In this document: piece after piece, positions 1 to 55,300 of the stretch
Position numbering within the stretch: position 1 is the first letter of the stretch
How the letters are laid out: every line of letters begins with the position of its first letter
From: Cyanidioschyzon merolae
Lineage: Eukaryota
Length of the DNA: 64,000 nt
Direction: 5' to 3' (one strand)
Assembly (NCBI GenBank): GCA_000091205.1
Contig: AP006490.2
Position numbers and translations under genes: made by a program
Notes under the pieces: generated by a model
Databases searched by the model: none
Told to the model about the DNA's origin: nothing
What the model saw: the letters and a program-made list of their open reading frames with translations, nothing else

Positions 1-470
1 GTATGTGACAATCCTCTATGGATTTGATCTCCGAAAACGGCGATGCATCACAAGCGACTGGTGGACGATTCTCTGCCTCCTCGCTAAAGAGTCGCGCGAC
101 TCGGGCGAGAGAAGCGCTCGATGCGACTTGCAGCTGCTGACCGTGACCCGTTGAGAAACCAGTTGCAGCGGCTGTAGCTCGATGTGATGCAGCTCGGGCA
201 TCCTTGTCTGCGCCACCTGGAGCGGGATCTTCATGAAAGAGTCGCGCGACTCGGGCGAGAGAAGCGCTCGATGCGACTTGCAGCTGCTGACCGTGACCCG
301 TTGAGAAACCAGTTGCAGCGGCTGTAGCTCGATGTGATGCAGCTCGGGCATCCTTGTCTGCGCCACCTGGAGCGGGATCTTCATGAAAGAGTCGCGCGAC
401 TCGGGCGAGAGAAGCGCTCGATGCGACTCGCAGCTGCTGACCGTGACCCGTTGAGAAACCAGTCCTCATT
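1..470. repeat. Tandem repeat with a 150-bp unit, about 3 copies, truncated by the window start
   Basis: The string 'agagtcgcgcgactcgggcgagagaagcgctcgatgcgac' recurs at positions 88, 238 and 388. Copies are near-identical and end around position 470. Because the unit is a multiple of 3, the array produces in-frame repeat ORFs (16..384 -). Confidence 0.85.
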
Positions 471-19648: not shown

Positions 19649-21052
19649 TTGCCCCTCGACGTCCAGGAAGCGTCTCGTGTGAGCAGAGCCTCAGCGGAGC
19701 GCGGCGTCAGCGGCCCGCAACTAGAAACGCCTGCCCCAGTCAAGCGTCGACGCAGCGTTTTTTCCTTGAAGCGCTGCTTTGCGGTGTTCGTTTCACGAAA
19801 CGTTCCGACAGCAATGTTCGGCATAGTTCGGGTCGCTTTCTCAATTCACACGAGCGCCAGCTTCAAGGCCGGTAGCAGTGCTTTCAAGTCGCACAACTGC
19901 ACCGACGTTCGTTTCCAGCACAAGCCGCTGCCTCGGGCAGCGGTTGCTCGGCGTCGGCTATGGCGTTCGCCTCTGGTACTGTGCGATCAGAGGCGTAAAG
20001 ACGCTTCGTCGAAGGCGGAGACTTTCGGAAGCGCAAATTCAAATGAAAGCACAACGAACGCTGACGCAACCGTGAACCTCGAACGAGGTCAGAGTGCAGA
20101 GGCAGCAAACCCGGGGGTGCCAACGTCCGGCGGACCGCGGCGACGTTCCCCGTTTGAGGACTTGGTCGACGGAGCTTCCGATGGTTTCGGGGGACCCACA
20201 TCCCCAGGGCTTCCTCGACGACGCTCCAACCTATCCGAGCAGAACGAGAGGATTCGAGCACTCCTGGGCCTCGAGAAACGTGACACCTCGGAGCGTACCC
20301 AGCAGCGGCCAGCGGCGCCCGTTCCCGAGCGCCCAGCAACCACGGTGACGAGCACGGAGAACGCACCAGGCCTGATCGACCTAACAGGGGACGGTGGTGT
20401 GCTCCGCGAGTTGCTCTCCCGAGGGGCACCAGAGAAAGCGGCGAACAAACAGACGCCGGTGCAAAGTACGTCGGGCAGTCGCCTTCGGGTGCACTATGTT
20501 GGCAAACTAGCGGAGACTGGCCAGATATTCGATGCATCTCGCGAGCGACAGGAACCTTTTGAGTTTATCCTGGGTGAAGGGAGTGTGATTAAGGGTTGGG
20601 AGGCCGGTCTGGTTGGTCTAGCGGCCGGCGATGTCGTGCGTCTGGTATGTGCTCCCGCTTATGCCTATGGACTGCGCGGAGTGCCGCCGGTGATCCCGCC
20701 TCGCGCGAAACTTGAGTTCGAGGTTGAGGTGCTGGAGGTGTTACCGGCCGCACCGGGCAACAGCGAAGCCCAGAGCAAATCATCTTTGCGTGCTCTCGAC
20801 GAAGATGACGTTCCACGTACCCCAGAAGATATTTCTCGCGCCTATATCAAACGTCTCGAGGAGCGCGCCGCGAATCCAAAGAAGGAATCGAAATGGTTTA
20901 TCATCTCGCCTTTTGCGAGTGCGACTGGAGAGCGACCGCCGTGGTGGTTGAATCCTAACATCACTTTCCTGATCATATTTTCCGTGCTCGGTCTGGCGAC
21001 GTATGCCGTATATGTGTCGGGTGGCATTCGTCAGGGGTTTCCGCCCTCGTAG
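19649..21052 (+). CDS. FKBP-type peptidyl-prolyl cis-trans isomerase with C-terminal transmembrane anchor
   Basis: The FKBP domain reads 'RLRVHYVGKLAETGQIFDASRERQEPFEFILGEGSVIKGWEAGLVGLAAGDVVRLVCAPAYAYGLRGVPPVIPPRAKLEFEVEVLEV'. A C-terminal hydrophobic segment 'ITFLIIFSVLGLATYAVYV' suggests a tail anchor. The N-terminal roughly 270 aa are low complexity, and the true start may be the internal Met at 19814. Confidence 0.85.
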   Translation: MPLDVQEASRVSRASAERGVSGPQLETPAPVKRRRSVFSLKRCFAVFVSRNVPTAMFGIVRVAFSIHTSASFKAGSSAFKSHNCTDVRFQHKPLPRAAVARRRLWRSPLVLCDQRRKDASSKAETFGSANSNESTTNADATVNLERGQSAEAANPGVPTSGGPRRRSPFEDLVDGASDGFGGPTSPGLPRRRSNLSEQNERIRALLGLEKRDTSERTQQRPAAPVPERPATTVTSTENAPGLIDLTGDGGVLRELLSRGAPEKAANKQTPVQSTSGSRLRVHYVGKLAETGQIFDASRERQEPFEFILGEGSVIKGWEAGLVGLAAGDVVRLVCAPAYAYGLRGVPPVIPPRAKLEFEVEVLEVLPAAPGNSEAQSKSSLRALDEDDVPRTPEDISRAYIKRLEERAANPKKESKWFIISPFASATGERPPWWLNPNITFLIIFSVLGLATYAVYVSGGIRQGFPPS

Positions 21053-22083
21053 GGGGCAAGCCACGGCCGCCCAGGTGCAGACACACACACACACTGGGGC
21101 GCGCTTACGCTGTATGCTTATAGAGACGTTGAGCGGCAGACATCGCAGCACCTTGGTGCTGCTTTGGTGACGAGTCGAATGCTACAAACGCGAATACTGG
21201 CGAGCATGATAGCGGTGGTCTCGTCGACAACGGAAAAAGAGCGGCTCTTGGGAGCATTCATGATCCTCAGGTAATCGACTTGGAGGAGGGCGCAAAAGTC
21301 GTTGCGGGTGCCTAGGGTACCGAATCCTGAACCCGAGCGCAATCCGCAAGCGCTACAAGGGCTCGTTCGTTCGTTGGTTCGTTCGTTCGGAGTATTCGAG
21401 AAGCAAATGCGTTCCTAGCATTCGTCTCCTGGCATAAATTGGCATCAATGTATAGAGAAACGGTACCCATGCGCTAAGCAAGGGGCAGGACACACGGCTC
21501 CGTGGGACGCATTTGTATCGACACATGGTCCCTTGTCATGGTTGACGCAGGCGTTTCCGGGTGCTCGTCTCATACCGCAGCCCGACGCGTTGCCATCCCT
21601 TCTGTCTATCCATTGGGATCCGCGCTTTCGATGGACGCAAGTCATGGGCTTTGGGGCATTTGACAGGAAACATAGGCCTAAGGTGAAGTTTTCTAGCGTA
21701 CAACAGCGCCCTGCGGACCGCTTGCAATCTTGTGCATTGCACTGCATTGCACTGCACTGCGCATACGCATCCATCACGACTCAGGTTTTTCTCGGCAAAC
21801 CGTTCCTTTCCGCAGCAAAACCAACGCAGCACCTCCTGTAGGCACCAACACCAACCTCAACATCAAGAGATGCACCATTAGCCGTCACTTCGCCTTGGGA
21901 TACCTCATTCGCGCTGCAGCGCGCGACGTTGTTCCAAAGTAGCCGATGCCGCAGCCGCAAACCCCATAGTCGTTTCCAGTGACGCTCAGATCGCCTTGGT
22001 GGTCCGATGACGGCCCCTACAGCCTTTTCAAACACTGGCCACGATGAGTCTATTGTACAGCTCGCAAAGAAACGGCACGTCGA

Positions 22084-23145
22084 TCAGATATTCTCACATT
22101 CCGGATGCGTTCCCTCGATGGCGATCCCGTTCATTTTGCAGCGCTCTCGAATAATCATTTCTGCGAGAATCATATCTTCCGGGGTCGTGATTTTGATATT
22201 CGCGTATTCGCCCATAGTAATTTTCACAGGATAATGCTTGTCGTCGAGCAACTCCACGACGCTCACGTCGTCTGTTACGCGTAGGCCCCGGCGCATGGCG
22301 TTCTCGAAGCCCTGACGCAGAAGACGAGCCCGAACCACTTGTGGTGTTTGGATCTCCCACAACCTGCTGCGATCGATAGTCCGCCTGACAAACTGTCCAT
22401 CCTCGCTCTCCTTAATCGTCGCTTTCACTGGCACGCCAATTGCTGCGGCCCCGTAGATCGAGGCGTCCCGCAGGCACGACCGTATGCAGGAGCGTGAAAC
22501 AAGTGGTCGCGCCGCGTCGTGAACACACACGAGGATGTCGTCTGTTTCATCTTTTTCACGATCCACCGTATCTGGGACGAGGGCGAGTCCAGAGCGAACT
22601 GAGTCTTGCCGCTCTAAGCCCGGGTCCGCGAATAAAATCCGCTTGTCGCGCAAAACATAGTTTCCAAAATACGCTTCACGATATCGTTTTTCAACGACGA
22701 TAATTATCTGAGTCACCTCGGGCAAGCCCAGAAAGAGCAACAGAGAACGTTCGGATACAGTCTTGCCACAGAGCTGCAGAAACTGCTTTGGCCGGTCGGC
22801 ACGCATGCGGCTGCCCAGGCCCCCCGCCAGCAGAATCACCGACACCGGCTGCCGAACCGGCGGCGGCACCAATCCGTTTCCCAAGTCATCCATCGGCCCG
22901 AACGCCGGCAGTATAGACTCTCCATTTTCTAGAAGAGTCATAAACTGCAGACGCTCGCTTGTAAAGTTCCGACGCCGAACAGATCCAACCTGGGTGCACC
23001 AGCCTTGCCGTGGTGGCCGTGAGCGCCGCTCTGCGAACGCGCCACTGCTCACTGCGGACGTTGCCACTGAGGCGCGACAACTGCAACGCCCGGGAGCTCT
23101 AACTGGTGCCTGCAGACCGTGTACTACGAAGTTCAACGGTGTCAT
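22084..23145 (-). CDS. ispD: 2-C-methyl-D-erythritol 4-phosphate cytidylyltransferase (IspD, MEP pathway) with plastid-transit-peptide-like N-terminus
   Basis: The IspD signatures 'VILLAGGLGSRMRADRPKQFL', 'VCVHDAARPLV' and 'WEIQTPQVV' are present. The raw ORF runs on to 23349 through the 120-bp repeat array; the first Met outside the array (23145) begins an R/S/A-rich stretch ('MTPLNFVVHGLQAPVRAPGRCSCRASVATSAVSS...') resembling a transit peptide. Confidence 0.85.
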   Translation of the reverse strand: MTPLNFVVHGLQAPVRAPGRCSCRASVATSAVSSGAFAERRSRPPRQGWCTQVGSVRRRNFTSERLQFMTLLENGESILPAFGPMDDLGNGLVPPPVRQPVSVILLAGGLGSRMRADRPKQFLQLCGKTVSERSLLLFLGLPEVTQIIIVVEKRYREAYFGNYVLRDKRILFADPGLERQDSVRSGLALVPDTVDREKDETDDILVCVHDAARPLVSRSCIRSCLRDASIYGAAAIGVPVKATIKESEDGQFVRRTIDRSRLWEIQTPQVVRARLLRQGFENAMRRGLRVTDDVSVVELLDDKHYPVKITMGEYANIKITTPEDMILAEMIIRERCKMNGIAIEGTHPECENI

Positions 23146-23244
23146 CAACGTAACTTGTGAAATGTGGAGCTTTTCGTCGGTCAAGTCCCCGAGGGAACCC
23201 GCGGGACCTCTACCTAACAGCCGGAGCGTGCGTGGCGCATTAAT

Positions 23245-24347
23245 GTGTGCGCTCCGCCGGTCGGAGCGCGCGCGCACGCGTACACCATCCAGGAGGCTGC
23301 GATTGGTGCAGGTGCTGGTGCAACGCATTCTGTAGGCGCGGATGCACATGTCCTTTATGTATAGGAAGGATCAGTTTGGGTGCATGGGTGCGCGCACGCG
23401 TACACCATCCAGGAGGCTGCGATTGGTGCAGGTGCTGGTGCAACGCATTCTGCAGGCGCGGATGCACATGTCCTTTATGTATAGGAAGGATCAGTTTGGG
23501 TGCATGGGTGCGCGCACGCGTACACCATCCAGGAGGCTGCGATTGGTGCAGGTGCTGGTGCAACGCTTTCTGTAGGCGCGGATGCACATGTCCTTTATGT
23601 ATAGGAAGGATCCGTTTGGGTGCATGGGTGCGCGCACGCGTACACCATCCAGGAGGCTGCGATTGGTGCAGGTGCTGGTGCAACGCATTCTGTAGGCGCG
23701 GATGCACATGTCCTTTATGTATAGGAAGGATCAGTTTGGGTGCATGGGTGCGCGCACGCGTACACCATCCAGGAGGCTGCGATTGGTGCAGGTGCTGGTG
23801 CAACGCATTCTGCAGGCGCGGATGCACATGTCCTTTATGTATAGGAAGGATCAGTTTGGGTGCATGGGTGCGCTCACGCGTACACCATCCAGGAGGCTGC
23901 GATTGGTGCAGGTGCTGGTGCAACGCATTCTGCAGGCGCGGATGCACATGTCCTTTATGTATAGGAAGGATCAGTTTGGGTGCATGGGTGCGCGCACGCG
24001 TACACCATCCAGGAGGCTGCGATTGGTGCAGGTGCTGGTGCAACGCATTCTGCAGGCGCGGATGCACATGTCCTTTATGTATAGGAAGGATCCGTTTGGG
24101 TGCATGGGTGCGCGCACGCGTACACCATCCAGGAGGCTGCGATTGGTGCAGGTGCTGGTGCAACGCATTCTGTAGGCGCGGATGCACATGTCCTTTATGT
24201 ATAGGAAGGATCAGTTTGGGTGCATGGGTGCGCGCACGCGTACACCATCCAGGAGGCTGCGATTGGTGCAGGTGCTGGTGCAACGCATTCTGCAGGCGCG
24301 GATGCACATGTCCTTTATGTATAGGAAGGATCAGTTTGGGTGCATGC
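23245..24347. repeat. Tandem array with a 120-bp unit, about 9.2 copies, more than 95% identical between copies
   Basis: The unit 'cgcgcacgcgtacaccatccaggaggctgcgattggtgcaggtgctggtgcaacgcattctg[c/t]aggcgcggatgcacatgtcctttatgtataggaaggatc[a/c]gtttgggtgcatgggtg' starts at 23271, 23391, 23511, ... 24231. It creates long in-frame artefact ORFs on both strands. Confidence 0.95.
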
Positions 24348-25512
24348 GTTTCCCAGCTTGCGGCGAACGCCGGAGTCGCGCTGCTCCTGCACCTACATAC
24401 TCCAAGCAACATGCGTCTATATCACACGACGTGTACCGCCGCGGACGCGCAAATGAGAGGCAGCACTACCAGCCTGTGGGCATTGCCGTCACCGCTATAC
24501 AGCATAGATTCGATTCATGGAAACAGGTTCACGCGGATACGTGAAACGCAGCGGCGATTTGTCGTGATTCTGCGCTCGACTGTATGCATCCCAGGAGTTT
24601 TACTTGCGCAAGCCTAGCATCCTCTTTCGGAATAGAGGTCTGGTTAATCCAAAGACCCAGCAGCTGCGAACCTCTATTGCGCACGCCTTGCTTTACCATG
24701 ACGTGTATCGACTCGATGAGCTCAACAGTGCCGCTCCCGACACAGCTGGGTAGCACAGACAGCGGCAAATGACATAACGCTGGGCGAGCACGGATCCTAC
24801 GGAGGTTTCCGTATCAACACGGCATTGCAGCATTCGTGTTTATAAATCCTGGGAACATCCTGCCTGCTTCTGCAGTTTCCACATTACCGAATTCCCCCAT
24901 AACATGATTCTTCTACAAATCCTGGGGACTAGCGAGGGAGAGCGTCCACCTCTATCACCGTAATCGATCGCCAAGGAGCCTCGAGGCGCGCACAGTGACG
25001 CGCCAACATTGCCTAGGGCAGCGCTTGGTACGGGCGGCAGACACGGGGCGACTGCACCACTTTGCAGAGAAAACCAGAACATTCTCGCTTACACGCCGAC
25101 AGAGAAGGCTGCCGCACCACGGCACTTGTCTGGAATATCTCGTTCAGTGCACATCGCTTCGAATGCATCGCATGTGCAAAGGAAAGCCTCCAGACAAAAC
25201 ACTCTTGAATACAAGCCTCTCTGTTCGAAGCTGCCCGCTCGGCGTATGCTGACGCTCCGGTCTATCACGATGCACCAGAGATGCTTGATCGCTACGAACC
25301 TTTCCGACGCTTGCCATGCATACAATTCCGACTGGTAGCGTTTGCAGCTAGTCTATGGGATCGAAGAGTCCCAGCAGTAATCTAGCTGATCTGTAACGCT
25401 CGTAAACGCTCATGGGGCGATACGGAACTGGTTCAATAGGTCGCACCGGCTACGCAGTGCGTCTTGGTGGCGCAGCCAGTTTCCGCACAAGGTCCAGAAA
25501 AGCTCTGAGCGT

Positions 25513-27882
25513 TTGCCGTGCACCGCTCCCCAGTGGTGTTGCGTCCAAAACATCAGCGGGCATTTGTTAAGCACCATGAGATTGATTTGGAAAGGCTGGC
25601 CAATCGAGCTGTCGGAGCGACTTGCTGCCCAGGCTGACTGGGAGCGACGACGCTGGCGAACTGCTATCGTGGCGCTCGAATCAACCGTGGTTACCCACGG
25701 CTTGCCATACCCGCAGAACTTAGAGCTCGTCGACCAGATCCAGACGAATATTCGTCAAAAGGGTGCACAGCCGGCACTCCTGGCCATCATTGACGGGGTC
25801 ATTACCGTAGATCCCGACTCAGCGGTCAGTCAGCGTTTAGCTGAACAGGGAGCTCGGGTCTTTCGCAAGTGCAACCTACGCGACCTGAGTCTGGCGGTTG
25901 CCGAGCGTTGGAACGGTTCTCTAACAGTCTCGGCAGTGATGGAAGTCGCACACGGCCTTGGTTTCCGGGTGTTTGTGACCGGCGGCATCGGTGGCGTCCA
26001 CCGTGACTTTACACAGAACCACGACGCCTCCGCAGACCTGACTGCACTTGCTCGAATCCCGGTATGCGTTGTCTGCGCGGGCGTGAAAAGCGTTCTTGAC
26101 ATTGGAGCTACCCTAGAACGCCTTGAGACAGATGCAGTGCCCGCCATAGTCTTCAACTCGTCGGAGTTTCCTGCGTTCTGGTGCCGACGCTCCGGGTATG
26201 CAGCACCAGCGCGCCTCGATACCGTGGAACAGGTCGCGACAGTGCTTCGGTTGCACCTGCTACCGCTGCTCTCATCGGCTAGAGTAGACCATGATGGCGA
26301 GTGCACCAACGCAGAAAGACTACCGTGCGGTATGCTGGTAGCTGTGCCGATCCCTGCTGAGGCGGAATGCTCGGAATCCGAGACCGCTATTCAGCAAGCG
26401 CTGGCGGAGGCGACCCAGAGAGGCATTCGCGGCAAAGCGTTGACACCGTTCCTGCTCGAGCGGGTCGCAGCGCTCACCCAAGGAGCCTCAGTGCGTGCGA
26501 ACATGGCCCTGCTGCTTCATAATGCGTCCTTTGGGGCGGCGCTCGCCTCTGTCATGCACCACAGCTGTCACGGGTTGCCGCTGGGCAGTGCCCTTCGACG
26601 ATACCAGCACCAGCAGCACCAGCACCATCAGTTATCGTATGCATCGATCACGGGATCGCGACACACAATCGACGAAGCGCTCAATGGGTGCCCGTCCGAT
26701 GATCCCGAGCAGCGCCTCCTTGCCAGGAACGGCCCCGTACACGACGACAGCTCCGCATCCTTGGAGCCGGCACTGGATGCGGACGCAGCGCAACCTGAGC
26801 TAGCGCAGCACCCGAAGCAGCGCCTGACTGCGGATTGTGGGGCAAGTGCACCGCTCCGCTGGCTCCCGGTGACGGTGCTGGGTCACTGGACACTCGATAT
26901 TTACGCTTTCGCCAGCAGCAATGTGCCATTTTCCTCAAATCTTACTGCGGTACCTGCATCTTATCCTGGTGTGATCCGCAGCGCCTACGGTGGTGTCGGT
27001 TACAATATCGCCTTGACTCTGAGCTACCTCGCAGGCGGCGGCGCCAGCCCGTACTTCACGGCCTCTGAGGTGATGAGGGATGCACACTTGGGACGACTTG
27101 CCGAGTCATCACTCACTATGGCGAACGAACGACGCCTAGGCACGTTCTGGTCGACACGGCACCCTGCGGCAACGTACGTGGCCGTCCACAACGAAGCACG
27201 CGACCTGCTCTTCGCCGTCTTTGACGGAGCCGATATCACGCCCGCGATGCTTGGTCACGTGAACTCGTCTCGCCCGATTGTTTGGGATGCCAACCTGACC
27301 CCGGCAGCAATGGCTGCACTACCACGAGCAAGCAGTTTCTGGTATGAGCCCACGTCACCGGCCAAGGCAGGACGTATTGTCGCTGCGCAGCGGCTCGAGG
27401 CGCTGCCGTGGATGTCGCCCAACGAACTTGAACTCATAGCGATTGCACAGGCTGCTGGATTCTCGTTCCAGGAAGGTGCCATCGCGGATGACGGCTCGAT
27501 ATCCGATGCGCTGATTACCGCAGCAGCCGCGTACCTGGTGAACACACGGGGCGTTCGGAATATCCTGGTCACCCAGGGTGCCCGCGGCGTCACCTGGTTC
27601 TATCCGGATGCTGGTGCACTAGGTGGCATCGCATCCCGCCATTTCGATGCGATTCGTGTAGAAAAGTCTAATGTTCGTTCAACAACAGGTGCTGGCGATG
27701 TCTTCGCTGCGGCGGTCATCTTTGCGTTGTGCGGTTGGGGGCCGGCGCCGCCTCTGGCTCCCGCCCAGGCGATTTCTTTTGGACTCGAGGCGGCAGCGAT
27801 CGCTTGTCAGTATGAGACTGCAGTGCCGCCTGCAGACGCCCTAAGGCCTATTGTACAGCGAATGAGGCGCCACCGGCTCTGA
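25513..27882 (+). CDS. Bifunctional pseudouridine-5'-phosphate glycosidase (PsuG/IndA-like, N-terminal) and pfkB-family pseudouridine kinase (C-terminal)
   Basis: The N-terminal half is colinear with PsuG: 'AIVALESTVVTHGLPYPQN', 'GFRVFVTGGIGGVHRD', 'VCVVCAGVKSVLDIGATLERLETDAVP', 'ALTPFLLERVAALTQG'. The C-terminal third carries the pfkB anion hole and catalytic motif 'TTGAGDVFAAAVIFAL'. A roughly 120-aa low-complexity linker separates the two halves. Confidence 0.85.
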   Translation: MPCTAPQWCCVQNISGHLLSTMRLIWKGWPIELSERLAAQADWERRRWRTAIVALESTVVTHGLPYPQNLELVDQIQTNIRQKGAQPALLAIIDGVITVDPDSAVSQRLAEQGARVFRKCNLRDLSLAVAERWNGSLTVSAVMEVAHGLGFRVFVTGGIGGVHRDFTQNHDASADLTALARIPVCVVCAGVKSVLDIGATLERLETDAVPAIVFNSSEFPAFWCRRSGYAAPARLDTVEQVATVLRLHLLPLLSSARVDHDGECTNAERLPCGMLVAVPIPAEAECSESETAIQQALAEATQRGIRGKALTPFLLERVAALTQGASVRANMALLLHNASFGAALASVMHHSCHGLPLGSALRRYQHQQHQHHQLSYASITGSRHTIDEALNGCPSDDPEQRLLARNGPVHDDSSASLEPALDADAAQPELAQHPKQRLTADCGASAPLRWLPVTVLGHWTLDIYAFASSNVPFSSNLTAVPASYPGVIRSAYGGVGYNIALTLSYLAGGGASPYFTASEVMRDAHLGRLAESSLTMANERRLGTFWSTRHPAATYVAVHNEARDLLFAVFDGADITPAMLGHVNSSRPIVWDANLTPAAMAALPRASSFWYEPTSPAKAGRIVAAQRLEALPWMSPNELELIAIAQAAGFSFQEGAIADDGSISDALITAAAAYLVNTRGVRNILVTQGARGVTWFYPDAGALGGIASRHFDAIRVEKSNVRSTTGAGDVFAAAVIFALCGWGPAPPLAPAQAISFGLEAAAIACQYETAVPPADALRPIVQRMRRHRL

Positions 27883-28276: not shown

Positions 28277-28306
28277 GACAACAAGCCAGCCAGCCAGCCA
28301 GCCAGC
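28277..28306. repeat. (CCAG)n microsatellite
   Basis: The sequence 'agccagccagccagccagccagccagc' lies in the convergent 3' intergenic region between the PsuG-K fusion and RPB2. Confidence 0.9.
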
Positions 28307-28427
28307 CAGCTTGCCTGCCAAGTTTTCCCCGCTCAGAGCGGCCCAATGGATGCTGTGGAGCTCGCGGTGCTGGACCAGCATGCCAAGGCGCGTGCTCAGA
28401 CGCCCGGGATCACCCCGTACGCTCGTG

Positions 28428-31982: not shown

Positions 31983-32959
31983 GAACGCCAGCGTTCAAAC
32001 CAAAGGTCTCAGTACTGAGCGCCGCTCCGTAGAGGTCAGTCCGAATTCCCAGGGTTGCTTCTCCTCAACGATTTACTCGCTCAGATCCGCCTACGGGCTA
32101 CGAACAAAGGAAAACCAGGAAGGCTCGCAGCGCTAACAAGCTTGCCGCCACAACAACGATAACAACAGGTACACGAAAAGCGTGCCTTCCTGAGCGAATC
32201 CACAGAGGGCGCCCCCTGGGTTCCGCGCTAGCACAAGGCGGCGCTGTACGCGGTAATCCGTGGAACGCCTCCGGATGCAGGTATCCGTTGCGGAAGCTAG
32301 GATTCCGGGTTCTTGCAAACGTTTCCTTGATCATGACAGGTTGATGCAACACGGGTTGACATTTCCAAAAAGCTAGTCATCGCTGCGCATACTCGGATCA
32401 GGGTTCAGTGTGAGTGATCCGTCGACGAAAAACGATATGTTACCCGGCGTACTTTCGCTGAAACACGCAGCGGCTAAAGCGTGCGCTGGACTCGTGGCCC
32501 CGGCAACATCCAGGTGTTAGCGCGTGGACTGTGCGCAACGTTGTTACAGCATATGGTTTTTCTCGTTCGCGGCTCCTTGGGATACCATCCGGAGGTGTGT
32601 GGCTCCGCGAAAGTCGTGAGTTCATGGCGCCGGTTGGCGGACTCGATTCAAAAACAACGTGATGCGTCTTTGTCAGAATACAGTGGAAAGGGTCCACTTT
32701 GCTCCATCATGCGTGCGCATTAAAGTTTGGGTCTCTTCCCATGGTCTTTTAGACCGGCGCTTTGGGGGTTCTCCTGCAACTGCTTCCTTTTCGTGGATCT
32801 CGCATCCGGCATGAAAAACGCCGGTCTCTCTTGTCACTCCAGCTCTGTTGTCAGCCGTCCGAAGATTTTGATGACAGCGTTCAAGTCCCGACGCTGCCGC
32901 TTGTGACTGTTGGCAACGCAGTTCATGCGCAGGTGATGGCTGCGATCTACGACTCGCTA

Positions 32960-51664: not shown

Positions 51665-51960
51665 GACACGTTCGCGCGTACCGAAGGCAGCGTTGATCCG
51701 TAGATCCAATGCTGTCCCAAACTGTCTAGATACGTTCTTGAAATCGCATCATCGTCCGCATTCTGCGTTCCGAAGGCAGCATCGATCCGTAGATCCAATG
51801 CCATCCCATAATGTCTAGATACGTCCCTGAAATCGCCATCACCAGTGGCATTCGTGCGTTCCATAGGCAGCGTTGATCCGTAGATCCAATGCTGTCGCAA
51901 AATGTTCAGACGCGTCCCTGAAATCGCCATCTCCAGCGGCATTCGCGCATCCGCATCATA
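51665..51960. repeat. Tandem repeat with a roughly 90-bp unit, 3 copies, about 80% identity
   Basis: The motif 'gttgatccgtagatccaatgc.gtc.caaa.tgt..aga..cgt.c.tgaaatcgc' recurs at positions 51695, 51784 and 51875, in the divergent intergenic region between eIF3c and the B-box gene. Confidence 0.85.
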
Positions 51961-52321: not shown

Positions 52322-55300
52322 ATGCCGAAGCTCCACCGTGTTCGAGCGGCTTGCGCTCTATGCAAGGAGAAGGAGGCGGTGGTCTACTGTTGCAGCCACG
52401 GCTGTGCGCTCTGTCTCACCTGCGATCGGAAGGAGCATAAAAGCGCTGTTGACTTTGGGACAAGACAGTTCAACACAAGGCGTAATGTGAGCGCAATGGA
52501 GGCAGTGGACTCCAATAAAGAAGGCTCGCGAGGAAAAATTACTGAGAAACTGCTTCGAGAAGGGCCGCCTTCTGCTTCGCAACTGGAACAGGCGAGTCGA
52601 CGTGCTGAGCGTCGAGCAGGAGCGTGTGCGCAGAAGCAACTGCAGTCCGATGTTGAAGTCGCGGCTCAGGTTGGGGCAACGGCTGAGAACAATTCAGGTT
52701 TACCGGGCGTGACGCGGGACTGCGTGGATGCTGCTTCCGTCGCGAAACGGTACCTAACCGACGGCCCGCAGGTGCACAGCGCACTGGAGAATAGCGGCCT
52801 GGATACTTGTCGCGCCGACGCGAGACCTGTGTTTCCTGTTATTGTGCCAGCTATCGGGGTCTCGGCTCTGACACAGCGGCCTTCGGAGAGCGTGCCAGAG
52901 CCTCAAGCAACGGAAACGAAGAACTGCGCTTTAGCCGAGAATCCGCTGTTTTTCAAGCCTGACTCGGAGCTGCCCTCTGGGGACTCACACTGGGCGAACC
53001 AGATTTATATTTCTAGTTCAGGATCGTCGAGTGTATCTGGTTCAGGTGAAACAGCAGAAAAGATCAGTGACTTTCGCGAGGGCGCGCCCTCGCTGGAGAC
53101 ACCACCTAACGAAGGACAATCCAGCTCTCAGTCGTCTACATTCAGGGACGGCCCCGGCCGGACGACAAGCTCATCGGATTTGCAAACTGCTGGTGTACTT
53201 CCATGTGCATCCGCAGATGTGCAAGCTCATGTGCGGCATCCGATTGTAGCGCCCGCTGTACTCATTCTTTGCGATTCCTGTGGCGCCATGCCGGCCGTCG
53301 CGTACTGCACAGAAAGGGCGCGTTTTCACTGTGAGCTTTGTATGAAATACGCACACGCATCGGGCTCTGCACCGGATGCACCACAGGAACTGCCTATGGC
53401 GTGGCAAGTGCAGTGCATGAAAAGTGGGAAAGCCGCCGATGCAGACATGAAGGGCGCCCACCGGCACGAGCAAGACCCATACGCCTCAAGTCGGAGTCGA
53501 TGCGGGGATTCTGGGGACAGCGGCAGTGCCGAGCGTGAACCCACAAGTGAATCACCCAGCGGCGGTGATCAGGGAACCTCTCATTCCGGCAATGGCGGCA
53601 GTAGAGAGCCGACATCATCGTCCCCGGCAGAGACGGCCGCTACGACGAAGCCACAGAATCTAGAGGGTCCAAGTACTACGGCAAAGAGTGCTCATTCGCA
53701 GCGAAAAACATATTCCGATCGAGGGCTCTCGCGATCTGTCGCTATGATGATGCTTTTGGATTGCTCTGTCGAGGTCCCGTCCCGCGGCTCCGAAGAGCTG
53801 TCTGCAGAGGGCGGCGATGATGCCTCAGCTGAAAGCATCAGTGAACAAACAGACGCCGAGAGCATGAGTCTCGGACACGAAAGCGCGCGATCCGGGGAAT
53901 TTCGCGCAGACCCCTGTACAGAGCCGACGCTCACCTCAACTGGTTTGCCCATCAAATGGGCAACCGCCATTTCCGAGGAGGATCTTGCTGCAGCCGCTGA
54001 GCGAGCCGTTCGCGTATTCGCCGCCTCGTCGAATAGCAACGGCACCCGAAGCACGAGCAGTAGACACGCAAGCAGCAATGACTTGTCTTCTGCAATCGTG
54101 CCCGGGACAGGTACCCATGATGTTGCCACAGCAGCTCCAGCGGTGCAATCTGAAGCAGCAGCAGAGGCGGCTCCGGCGCAGGTAACCGGTTTCGAACAGC
54201 CGCCTTTACCTGCCTGCTGCATCGATATAACGACCACCGATGCACGAAGAGCAATCTCTATCGCAAAGAATGAACCATTCATCATTGGACAGCGCTCGCG
54301 ACCGGCGTATGCGCCTTCGTCGCCTCTTGGACAGCAACCGACATCGCAGTCTACAGGGCGCCGAGGTGGTACCCATCAGCGCAGAACAGCGGATGCAAGT
54401 GAAGGTGCCAAGCGTGCGCTACCGCTCAAACATCAGGCAAACACAACTGCGAGCCGCTGGCGAAAAGGACGCGCCACCGGAAAGAACGTGGATATGCGCC
54501 CCGACGCCAATCATCCCGAAGAGGAACCGCTGGCACCACATTTAACTGGGTTGGATGTCTGGGGACCTCATCCGGAGACGATGGCGATCATCGACAGCAG
54601 CACGCTCGCTCAAGCTGAGACGGCCAGGGGGTTGCGCTCCAAGACAGGGGCGCCAAGGAGCGCGGAGCAAATGCGCGGCACCGCTCTCAAGGTCGAAGGC
54701 GCTGCCATCTGTGCGTCGAGCGCACGAGCCGCATGCTCAGCTGAAGGCCAGGCAGTGTCCGCACCGAGGATGCGTACCTCAGCGCGAGCTTTGGAATCCT
54801 CGACCAGAGTGGATAGTACGCCCCTGGTGCCTTGGCGTGATCTAGAGGTGCAGCAGGCACCGTCTCTCTCGAAACCGCAGGTCCCGGCTTACGTTGCGGC
54901 GTGGTCTGCCTCCCCGAGTCAGCCGAGTTTGGCGGACTTTGTGGAAGCACCTCTTGAATGCAGAAGAAGTATCTCAAAAGCGGCATCAGCGCAGGAGTTG
55001 CGAACGGCATCCGGTCGAGTACCCGATAGCCGGCATCGCTCTTCACGGGAAACCGCCCCGGGCCTAGCAACGCGAACTTCACGGGAAAGCGCTTCGCATC
55101 CTGCGAGTGCACAGACTGCACATCTCGTGGAAGAAGGAGCCACGAGCCGCGGTTGTCCGGCGGGTTTGGTTCATCTCGACGCTGGACCAAGAGGCGGGCA
55201 TGGTGTTGCCTCCATTGCAGTGGGGACGATCGACGGGAACCCAGCCAAACTCCGTGGCTTTGACGATGGCACCCCAGCAGCACGTCTGAGCCCACGTTCC

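What the first reader, a model, noticed from the sequence alone, without database searches (positions are those of the whole stretch)
23245..24347. Near-perfect 9-copy 120-bp tandem array in the divergent promoter region between IspD and the PsuG-PsuK gene
The copies differ by only a few point substitutions, which implies recent expansion or concerted evolution. The array begins about 100 bp upstream of the predicted IspD start and lies 1.2 kb upstream of the PsuG-K start. The 120-nt unit keeps reading frame, so both strands show 390-456-aa repeat ORFs, the plus one cysteine-rich ('HHPGGCDWCRCWCNAFCRRGCTCPLC'). It is most probably a non-coding minisatellite, but it is placed to act as a copy-number-variable cis-regulatory array.
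Basis: seen in the sequence. Interest (0 to 1): 0.55.

Follow-up and report, generated by a model that had tools for sequence, protein, structure and literature searches.

The report
Non-coding minisatellite upstream of algal IspD

Summary
Window 23270-24349 is nine head-to-tail copies of a 120-bp unit, about 98% identical. The window is Cyanidioschyzon merolae: the strain 10D IspD and PsuG-PsuK proteins match exactly. The long ORFs across the array are a by-product of a unit length divisible by three. Their codon usage is not gene-like, no protein in 5.8 billion matches them, and 10D annotates no CDS there. The unit was found only at this locus. Contigs from wild populations (99.2-99.5% identical) break inside the array and carry different orders of the same variant units. 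That is the pattern of a polymorphic minisatellite whose unit variants predate these populations. Two more distant relatives keep the gene order but lack the unit. RNA-type contigs place IspD 5' ends at 23085-23210, 60-185 bp from the array, and none enters it. Contigs from the PsuG-PsuK side run into its far end, so part of it may be transcribed toward PsuG-PsuK. Each unit carries an 18-nt alternating purine/pyrimidine tract, a CCAAT box, ACGCGT and an AT-rich patch. A cis-regulatory role is possible but untested. Verdict: ordinary, a new member of a known kind.

The parts
23270..24349 (.). Minisatellite: nine head-to-tail copies of a 120-bp unit (57.5% GC), with nine substitutions in all and no indels
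23388..23405 (.). Example of the 18-nt perfect alternating purine/pyrimidine tract GTGCGCGCACGCGTACAC that spans each unit junction and contains ACGCGT. It is present at 8 of 9 units; a 20-nt version lies at 23266-23285. It is part of a 28-nt imperfect palindrome.
   Evidence: Nine of the 14 such tracts of 14 nt or more in the whole window lie in the array.
23297..23326 (.). Example in copy 1 of the block that never varies in any population: CTGCGATTGGTGCAGGTGCTGGTGCAACGC. It holds a CCAAT box (ATTGG on the plus strand, CCAAT in the IspD orientation, about 100 bp upstream of the 23203 RNA end) and three GGTGCW hexamers.
23351..23364 (.). Example in copy 1 of the unit's only AT-rich patch, CCTTTATGTATAGG, which is weakly TATA-like on both strands
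   Evidence: read from the sequence; function inferred only
23249..23269 (.). Perfect palindrome GCGCTCCG-N5-CGGAGCGC directly abutting the IspD-proximal edge of the array
23085..23210 (-). Cluster of IspD transcript 5' ends inferred from RNA-type contig ends: 23203-23210 (four contigs with four unrelated chimeric heads at the same junction), 23160-23166 (three), 23137 (one) and 23085 (three)
   Evidence: Adapter sequence at fixed genomic ends shows the data are RNA-seq-type.
22084..23145 (-). IspD CDS as annotated in C. merolae 10D (353 aa; BAM79792 / XP_005536078). This protein is an exact substring of the window ORF.
24350..25575 (.). 1.2-kb non-coding spacer between the array and PsuG-PsuK. 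It has no ORF conserved with relatives and no Rfam or tRNA hit. It is covered by contigs contiguous with PsuG-PsuK; contig 5' ends fall at 24431, 24501, 24828, 25028, 25092 (twice), 25234 and 25337.
25576..27882 (+). PsuG-PsuK fusion gene (Indigoidine_A + PfkB domains; 768 aa; 100% identical over its full length to BAM79793, 'similar to indigoidine synthesis protein IdgA')

Best explanation
The array is a non-coding, locus-specific minisatellite (VNTR-type tandem array) in the intergenic region between the divergently transcribed IspD and PsuG-PsuK genes of Cyanidioschyzon merolae. A 120-bp piece of the IspD upstream region was tandemly duplicated. Since then it has been expanded, shuffled and kept nearly homogeneous by replication slippage, unequal sister-chromatid exchange or gene conversion. 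Hairpin- or Z-prone sequence at the unit junction and at the array edge may have favoured this (inferred). The array is not part of the IspD mRNA, which starts 60-185 bp away. Its PsuG-PsuK-side copies appear in RNA-type contigs. The most economical reading is low-level plus-strand transcription that starts inside the array and runs toward PsuG-PsuK (inferred). Any effect on IspD or PsuG-PsuK expression would come from the number of repeated sites and from the spacing it adds upstream of the IspD core promoter. This is possible but unshown. The default is a neutral or nearly neutral polymorphism.
For: Array structure. Organism and annotation: the 10D IspD protein is an exact substring of the window ORF, PsuG-PsuK is 100% identical, and their accession numbers are consecutive, so no CDS is annotated between them. 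Not coding: per-codon log-likelihood scores for the open frames are -0.02, -0.47 and -0.04, against +0.144 +/- 0.095 for coding windows of genes in this window. No protein at E <= 1e-3 matches any open frame among 5.8 billion. The Pfam hits on the minus-strand repeat ORF have no stretch that passes on its own. No Rfam or tRNA hit. Single locus: all four metagenome contigs carrying the unit flank IspD or PsuG-PsuK, and viral contigs gave no match. Polymorphic minisatellite behaviour: contigs from several independent samples end inside the array after 0.1-3.5 copies. The order of unit variants at sites 25, 58, 64, 66, 77 and 104 differs between populations, while the variants themselves are shared with 10D. 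Lineage-specific: Cyanidiococcus (626-bp intergenic region) and a relative with 87% IspD amino-acid identity (1,389 bp) keep the synteny but have no similarity to the unit. The latter carries an unrelated 84-bp x 2.4 repeat at the same relative place. Long-unit arrays are common in these genomes. Transcript ends.
Against: No expression, chromatin or binding data were mapped directly. The RNA origin of the JGI and Logan contigs is inferred from adapter read-through at fixed ends, chimeric junctions at fixed positions, and contig ends that coincide with gene 5' ends. It is not taken from sample metadata. True copy numbers in wild populations are unknown. Two MEGAHIT contigs cross the locus with exactly one unit, which could be a collapse or a real one-copy allele. 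Persistence of a multi-copy array in 10D and in wild populations, together with blocks that never vary in any copy seen, would also fit weak selection. The search for other loci needed an exact 24-mer, so diverged copies elsewhere in the genome would have been missed.
Confidence: 0.78

Rival explanations
1. The array is a functional, copy-number-tunable cis-regulatory module. Nine repeated sets of sites (a CCAAT box, ACGCGT, three GGTGCW hexamers and a Z-DNA-prone tract) sit from -67 upstream of the IspD start site. They act as an enhancer, upstream activating sequence or insulator, or as a sink for negative supercoils between the two divergent genes.
For: The array edge is 67 bp from the most distal IspD RNA end, and the proximal CCAAT box is at about -100. 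The 18-nt alternating purine/pyrimidine tracts are strongly concentrated in the array: 9 of 14 in 64 kb. GGTGCA occurs three times per unit, against 0.06 expected per 120 bp. A multi-copy array is retained in 10D and in wild populations. A second, unrelated tandem repeat lies at the orthologous position in a sister species.
Against: There is no sequence conservation beyond the species. The motifs are short and were picked after the fact. Two assemblies show a single unit. Long-unit arrays occur in other intergenic regions of these genomes without any evident link to function. No binding or expression data exist.
Confidence: 0.15
2. Each unit carries a promoter. The array is then a ninefold repeated start site producing unannotated plus-strand transcripts (a long leader or non-coding RNA) that run through the 1.2-kb spacer into PsuG-PsuK.
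For: RNA-type contigs from the PsuG-PsuK side run back into the array by 56-302 bp and break there. In the same sample series, and in one case the same sample (3300050386), the IspD-side contigs stop at 23203 without entering the array only 67 bp away. This asymmetry is expected if transcription starts inside the array and runs toward PsuG-PsuK. The unit has one AT-rich, weakly TATA-like patch.
Against: The strand of these RNAs is unknown. Minus-strand transcripts ending inside the array, or DNA carry-over, are not excluded. Several contigs start well downstream of the array (25028-25337), which suggests that the main PsuG-PsuK start is not in it. The TATA-like match is poor.
Confidence: 0.2
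3. The array encodes a tandem-repeat protein: the Cys-rich 456-aa plus-strand ORF or the His/Pro-rich 390-aa minus-strand ORF.
For: Three frames stay open across all or most copies. The common position-64 C/T variant is synonymous in two of them (derived from the sequence and translations).
Against: The Cys-rich frame scores -0.47 per codon, below every coding window. The other two open frames fall in the lowest 5-6% of coding windows. There is no homologue in 5.8 billion proteins, not even a gene call on the sister contigs. The 10D annotation has no gene there. Three or more open frames are expected for 42% of random 120-mers. The position-64 T variant puts a stop codon in the third open frame. 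IspD-direction RNA does not include the array.
Confidence: 0.02
4. The nine copies are an assembly artefact.
For: Two MEGAHIT metagenome contigs cross the locus with a single unit.
Against: Independent assemblies from several samples break inside the array after up to 3.5 copies, and they carry distinct variant units. In one sample, two proximal and 3.5 distal copies are all different from each other. The window copies carry their own substitutions. Collapse of a 120-bp repeat is the expected short-read artefact; expansion is not.
Confidence: 0.03

Closest known systems
Minisatellites / VNTR loci (Jeffreys-type, analysed by variant-repeat mapping)
   Same: It is a head-to-tail array of a unit tens of bp long at a single locus. 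It is non-coding and GC-rich. The copies are nearly identical, and a few unit variants appear in an order that differs between individuals or populations. It even contains a Chi-like GCTGGTGC within the GGTGCW run (my own reading of the sequence).
   Different: The 120-bp unit is at the long end of the range. The host is a very compact, repeat-poor, mostly asexual-looking unicellular red alga. Copy-number polymorphism itself was not measured here.
Unstable tandem repeats in promoters (yeast; Vinces et al. 2009, recalled from memory, not read here) and human promoter VNTRs such as INS or MAOA
   Same: The tandem array lies within the first 1.2 kb upstream of a transcription start. In those known cases copy number can tune expression through nucleosome or factor-site effects.
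   Different: The yeast promoter repeats are mostly short-unit and AT-rich. No expression effect has been shown for this array.
Z-DNA-forming alternating purine/pyrimidine tracts upstream of genes
   Same: Each unit has an 18-nt perfect alternating GC/CA-type tract, placed between divergent genes where negative supercoiling is expected.
   Different: This rests on a sequence criterion only. Formation of Z-DNA was not tested.
Tandem RNA-gene arrays (5S rDNA, snoRNA or tRNA clusters)
   Same: The unit length is about 120 nt, and the array shows signs of transcription.
   Different: No Rfam family matches even at E <= 1, and ARAGORN finds nothing. There is no spacer between units.

Membership tests
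Minisatellite / VNTR | Head-to-tail tandem array of a unit of about 10-100+ bp with high identity between copies | tested here: met
   120 bp x 9.0 copies, 98% identity, no indels
Minisatellite / VNTR | Confined to one locus rather than dispersed | tested here: met
   All four metagenome contigs with the unit map to the IspD or PsuG-PsuK flanks. There are no other copies in the 64-kb window. Limit: the scan required an exact 24-mer, and the rest of the 10D genome could not be searched.
Minisatellite / VNTR | Polymorphism between individuals in internal variant-repeat order | tested here: met
   The proximal and distal copies differ between the window and L001, L003, L010, L011, L012, L023, L029, L033 and L034 at shared variant sites.
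Minisatellite / VNTR | Polymorphism between individuals in copy number | tested here: inconclusive
   Nine copies in the window. One unit in two MEGAHIT contigs, which may be collapsed. At least 3.5 copies at the end of one contig, and at least 5 distinct copies in one sample if it holds a single haplotype. Short-read assemblies cannot count copies.
Minisatellite / VNTR | Non-coding | tested here: met
Satellite DNA family (dispersed or centromeric) | Same unit at many loci or in very long arrays, often at AT-rich centromeres | tested here: not met
   Found at a single locus only. The array is 1.08 kb, and its GC content (57.5%) equals that of its surroundings.
Tandem-repeat protein gene | Gene-like codon usage and detectable protein relatives or annotation | tested here: not met
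   The Pfam hits are summation artefacts with no stretch that passes on its own.
Promoter tandem repeat with regulatory effect | Lies within the promoter or upstream region of a gene | tested here: met
   The array edge is 67 bp from the most distal inferred IspD RNA 5' end and 125 bp from the ATG.
Promoter tandem repeat with regulatory effect | Copy number changes the expression of the neighbouring gene | not testable with these tools
   This needs strains or constructs that differ in copy number.
Structured RNA gene array (5S, snoRNA, tRNA) | Match to a covariance model or a tRNA fold | tested here: not met
   No Rfam match at E <= 1 in 22000-26000. No ARAGORN hit. The DNA fold z-score is only -2.2.
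Z-DNA-forming element | Alternating purine/pyrimidine tract of 12 nt or more, rich in CG/CA steps | tested here: met
   An 18-nt tract in 8 of 9 units, plus a 20-nt tract at the array edge
Z-DNA-forming element | Adopts the Z conformation in vivo | not testable with these tools
   This needs chemical probing or Z-alpha-domain ChIP.

The most novel reading that the evidence does not exclude
The 120-bp unit is a self-contained promoter and Z-DNA module. Its ninefold repetition initiates unannotated plus-strand transcription toward PsuG-PsuK. Through copy number, it sets the expression balance between a plastid isoprenoid gene (IspD) and a pseudouridine-salvage gene. This would make it a natural, population-variable 'expression dial' in one of the simplest eukaryotic genomes.
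Probability: 0.12. Interest if true: 0.45.

Novelty: new member of a known kind. Interest (0 to 1): 0.2.

Why it matters
C. merolae is prized as a model because its genome is small, nearly intron-free and poor in repeats. A well-defined, population-variable minisatellite next to an essential MEP-pathway gene has three modest uses. It is a ready strain-typing marker for 10D-like populations. It is a warning that short-read assemblies break or collapse here. It is a tractable test case, in a genetically manipulable alga, for whether promoter-proximal tandem arrays tune expression. It opens no new category of biology.

Tried and rejected
1. Coding repeat protein: rejected.
2. RNA gene array such as 5S, snoRNA or tRNA: no Rfam or ARAGORN hit.
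3. Dispersed satellite or mobile-element origin: the metagenome scan found only this locus, and two viral scans found nothing. The scan of bacterial and archaeal genomes gave one 25-nt match, in a glycine-zipper lipoprotein gene of a 36.6%-GC Balneola MAG. It does not extend and is treated as coincidence with GGTGCN-type Gly/Ala codon runs.
4. Conservation in relatives: blastn (word size 7) and tblastx of the intergenic regions of Cyanidiococcus (L006) and of the relative with 87% IspD amino-acid identity (L007) found nothing.
5. A hidden small gene in the 1.2-kb spacer: no ORF is conserved between species.
6. Structural variants upstream of IspD: I considered this for L004, L005, L013 and L021. 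I rejected it in favour of chimeric contig heads at an RNA 5' end. The four heads are unrelated to each other, yet all join at the same base.
7. Literature: no paper describing this array was found. The 2007 complete-genome paper, the 2020 resequencing note and the 2024 dispersed-repeat study do not mention it.
8. The exact look-up of the window's PsuG-PsuK protein failed, although the 10D protein is reported as 100% identical. This is unexplained and probably a limit of the index.

Full report
**Observation**

Tandem Repeats Finder reports one array at 23270-24346: period 120, 9.0 copies, 98% matches, no indels, score 2098. Cutting the sequence in register gives nine complete units at 23270-24349, with nine substitutions against the consensus. 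Position 64 is C or T (T in copies 1, 3, 4 and 8). Position 104 is A or C (C in copies 3 and 7). There are single changes at positions 58, 5 and 118. Two long sub-patterns each occur exactly nine times, against none in 100 shuffles, and nowhere else in the 64-kb window. The flanks have no similarity to the unit. Everything else in the description is correct, including the 390-aa minus-strand and 456-aa plus-strand ORFs.

**Organism and gene context**

- The minus-strand ORF 22084-23349 is IspD (Pfam E = 1.4e-50).
- The plus-strand ORF 25513-27882 is an Indigoidine_A + PfkB fusion, that is PsuG-PsuK.
- The ORF 19649-21052 is an FKBP.
- The annotated IspD of Cyanidioschyzon merolae strain 10D (BAM79792 / XP_005536078, 353 aa, on a 739,753-bp chromosome) is an exact substring of the window ORF. 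This fixes the annotated ATG at 23145.
- The 10D PsuG-PsuK protein (BAM79793) is 100% identical over its full length.
- The two accession numbers are consecutive, so the reference annotation places no CDS between the two genes.
- The array therefore starts 125 bp upstream of the IspD ATG and ends 1,227 bp upstream of the PsuG-PsuK ATG.

**Coding or not**

Three of the six frames of the unit lack stop codons. This is also true of 27.5% of random 120-mers from the window, and 42% have three or more open frames. Any such unit repeated nine times gives long ORFs.

I trained a codon-usage log-likelihood score on 11 long genes of the window. It gives +0.144 +/- 0.095 per codon for coding 40-codon windows and -0.26 +/- 0.23 for non-coding frames. 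The other two open frames score -0.02 and -0.04, in the bottom 5-6% of coding windows. The best-scoring frame contains a stop.

A query joining all three open frames found no protein at E <= 1e-3 among 5.8 billion. The Pfam hits on the minus-strand ORF have zero stretches that pass on their own. Rfam at E <= 1 and ARAGORN found nothing in 22000-26000. The array is non-coding and is not a known RNA gene.

**One locus or many**

An exact 24-mer from the invariant part of the unit hit four metagenome contigs. All four align to the window at 99.2-99.6% identity, on either the IspD flank or the PsuG-PsuK flank. Viral contigs gave nothing. The bacterial and archaeal genome scan gave one 25-nt match, inside a glycine-zipper lipoprotein gene of a 36.6%-GC Balneola MAG, with no extension. 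I treat it as coincidence. Within the limits of exact-match scanning, the unit is specific to this locus.

**Population evidence**

Contigs carrying the same IspD or PsuG-PsuK proteins were fetched from JGI, ENA and Logan assemblies.

- The long, DNA-type contigs L002/L009, L003, L010, L011, L012 and L027 all end inside the array, after 0.7 to 3.5 copies. This is the expected behaviour of short-read assemblers at a multi-copy repeat.
- Two MEGAHIT contigs (L001, L023) cross the locus with exactly one unit. This may be a collapse or a real one-copy allele; I cannot tell which.
- The copies next to each flank differ between populations, but they are built from a shared set of variants at sites 25, 58, 64, 66, 77 and 104. 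One example is the 58T-64T-66A-104C type. The 10D copy 3 carries 58T-64T-104C.
- Shared variants in different orders are the classic signature of a minisatellite undergoing unequal exchange or conversion. They also show that the array is older than the split between 10D and these populations.
- In one sample the two proximal copies (L012) and the 3.5 distal copies (L010) are all distinct. If they come from one haplotype, that population has at least five copies.
- A published study reports a 'C. merolae 10D-like isolate' in JGI metagenomes and in Poly-A and RiboMinus metatranscriptomes from Lemonade Creek, Yellowstone (PMC11662350). This is a plausible source of many of these contigs, but I could not link the sample identifiers.

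**Deeper relatives**

Cyanidiococcus yangmingshanensis (L006) and a relative with 87% IspD amino-acid identity (L007) keep the gene order RPB2 / PsuG-PsuK / IspD / FKBP. Their IspD-PsuG-PsuK intergenic regions are 626 bp and 1,389 bp. The 10D region would be 1,350 bp without the array. Neither region shows any similarity to the unit or to the rest of the 10D intergenic region.

L007 carries an unrelated 84-bp x 2.4 tandem repeat 220-420 bp upstream of its IspD, and two more long-unit repeats nearby. The window has two further long-unit arrays. One is 150 bp x 2.5 at 86-463. The other is 91 bp x 3 at 51671-51945, in another divergent intergenic region. Long-unit tandem duplications in intergenic DNA thus appear to be a recurrent, fast-turnover feature of these genomes. 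This array is the largest one seen here.

**Transcript ends (inferred)**

A second class of contigs is short (2-10 kb).

- Three Logan contigs end in Illumina adapter sequence directly after a fixed genomic base. Two independent runs end at 19785, which is 29 nt upstream of the FKBP ATG.
- Several contigs end together at 19751-19785 and at 32148-32182, just upstream of FKBP and of RPB2.
- Some have unrelated or fold-back sequence joined at fixed positions.

These are properties of RNA-seq assemblies, not of random genomic fragments.

On the IspD side, four such contigs from four samples have four unrelated heads joined at the same base, window 23203-23210. Three more start at 23160-23166, one at 23137 and three at 23085. 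None enters the array, although it begins only 60 bp beyond the outermost end. IspD mRNA therefore starts at about 23085-23210 and excludes the array. This also argues against the minus-strand repeat ORF being expressed with IspD.

On the other side, contigs of the same series (L029, L030, L033, L034) run from RPB2 and PsuG-PsuK back across the 1.2-kb spacer and 56-302 bp into the array, then break. L030 comes from the same sample as the IspD-side contig L013. Others start at 24431, 24501, 24828, 25028, 25092 (two independent runs), 25234 and 25337.

This asymmetry is most simply explained by low-level plus-strand transcription that starts within the array and runs toward PsuG-PsuK, with the main PsuG-PsuK starts nearer the gene. 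Minus-strand RNAs that end inside the array are not excluded, because the strand is unknown.

**Anatomy of the unit**

- Each unit junction forms an 18-nt perfect alternating purine/pyrimidine tract, GTGCGCGCACGCGTACAC, which contains ACGCGT. Nine of the 14 such tracts of 14 nt or more in the whole window lie in the array. The tract sits within a 28-nt imperfect palindrome.
- A perfect palindrome with 8-nt arms abuts the array edge at 23249-23269.
- The block that never varies in any copy seen contains ATTGG and three tandem GGTGCW hexamers. ATTGG reads as CCAAT in the IspD orientation, and the proximal one lies about 100 bp upstream of the 23203 end. GGTGCA occurs three times per unit, against 0.06 expected per 120 bp.
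- There is one AT-rich patch, CCTTTATGTATAGG.
- The single-strand DNA fold is only mildly better than shuffled sequence (z = -2.2).

These features make a regulatory or recombination-prone role conceivable. However, they were noticed after the fact and prove nothing.

**Conclusion**

It is a single-locus, lineage-specific, polymorphic minisatellite at -67 and beyond of the IspD start region in C. merolae. It is probably neutral or nearly so. Two open possibilities remain: that copy number modulates IspD or PsuG-PsuK, and that the array itself starts transcription toward PsuG-PsuK. No paper describing the array was found. It is a new member of a well-known kind and of low general interest.

Noticed in passing
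window 23085-23145 (minus strand): Three independent Logan RNA-type contigs start at 23085, which is 60 nt inside the annotated IspD CDS, and one starts at 23137. Such transcripts could only encode the 285-aa form that begins at the Met at 22941. That form lacks most of the N-terminal extension, presumably the plastid transit peptide. The gene caller indeed predicted this 285-aa protein on 17 contigs.
   Followed up: partly
L004, L005, L013 and L021 (first 116-210 nt); L016 and L022 (first about 80-100 nt); L030 (last 121 nt): Unrelated or fold-back sequences are joined at fixed genomic positions (23203-23210, 23160-23162 and 32148). They look like template-switch or assembly chimeras at RNA 5' ends. 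As a side effect they mark transcript starts.
   Followed up: partly
window 86-463 and 51671-51945: Two more long-unit tandem arrays: 150 bp x 2.5 at 99% identity, and 91 bp x 3.0 at 83% identity. The second lies in another divergent intergenic region, 377 bp upstream of the gene starting at 52322.
   Followed up: partly
L007 9578-9778, 13280-13493 and 5376-5588: The relative with 87% IspD amino-acid identity has unrelated tandem repeats: 84 bp x 2.4 upstream of its IspD (the orthologous position), 82 bp x 2.6 upstream of FKBP, and 110 bp x 1.9 at the RPB2 3' end. This suggests that long-unit tandem duplication in intergenic DNA is a general habit of this lineage.
   Followed up: partly
L036 7444-7468 (Balneola sp. 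MAG, JBLWXP010000001.1): A 25-nt exact match to the unit lies inside a bacterial glycine-zipper lipoprotein gene (...TAIGAGAGALAGAV...). The one stop-containing frame of the unit reads AAIGAGAGAT at this point. Judged coincidental.
   Followed up: yes
window 28284-28310: An (AGCC)6.8 microsatellite lies just downstream of PsuG-PsuK. Contigs L040 and L041 end there.
   Followed up: no
window 25576-27882: The exact-sequence look-up of the window's 768-aa PsuG-PsuK product found nothing, although the 10D protein P0133 is reported as 100% identical over 100% of the query. The discrepancy is unexplained.
   Followed up: no
window 25092: Two independent Logan contigs (SRR7787170 and SRR29605732) begin at exactly 25092, which is 484 nt upstream of the PsuG-PsuK ATG. 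This may be a discrete start site that gives a long leader.
   Followed up: no
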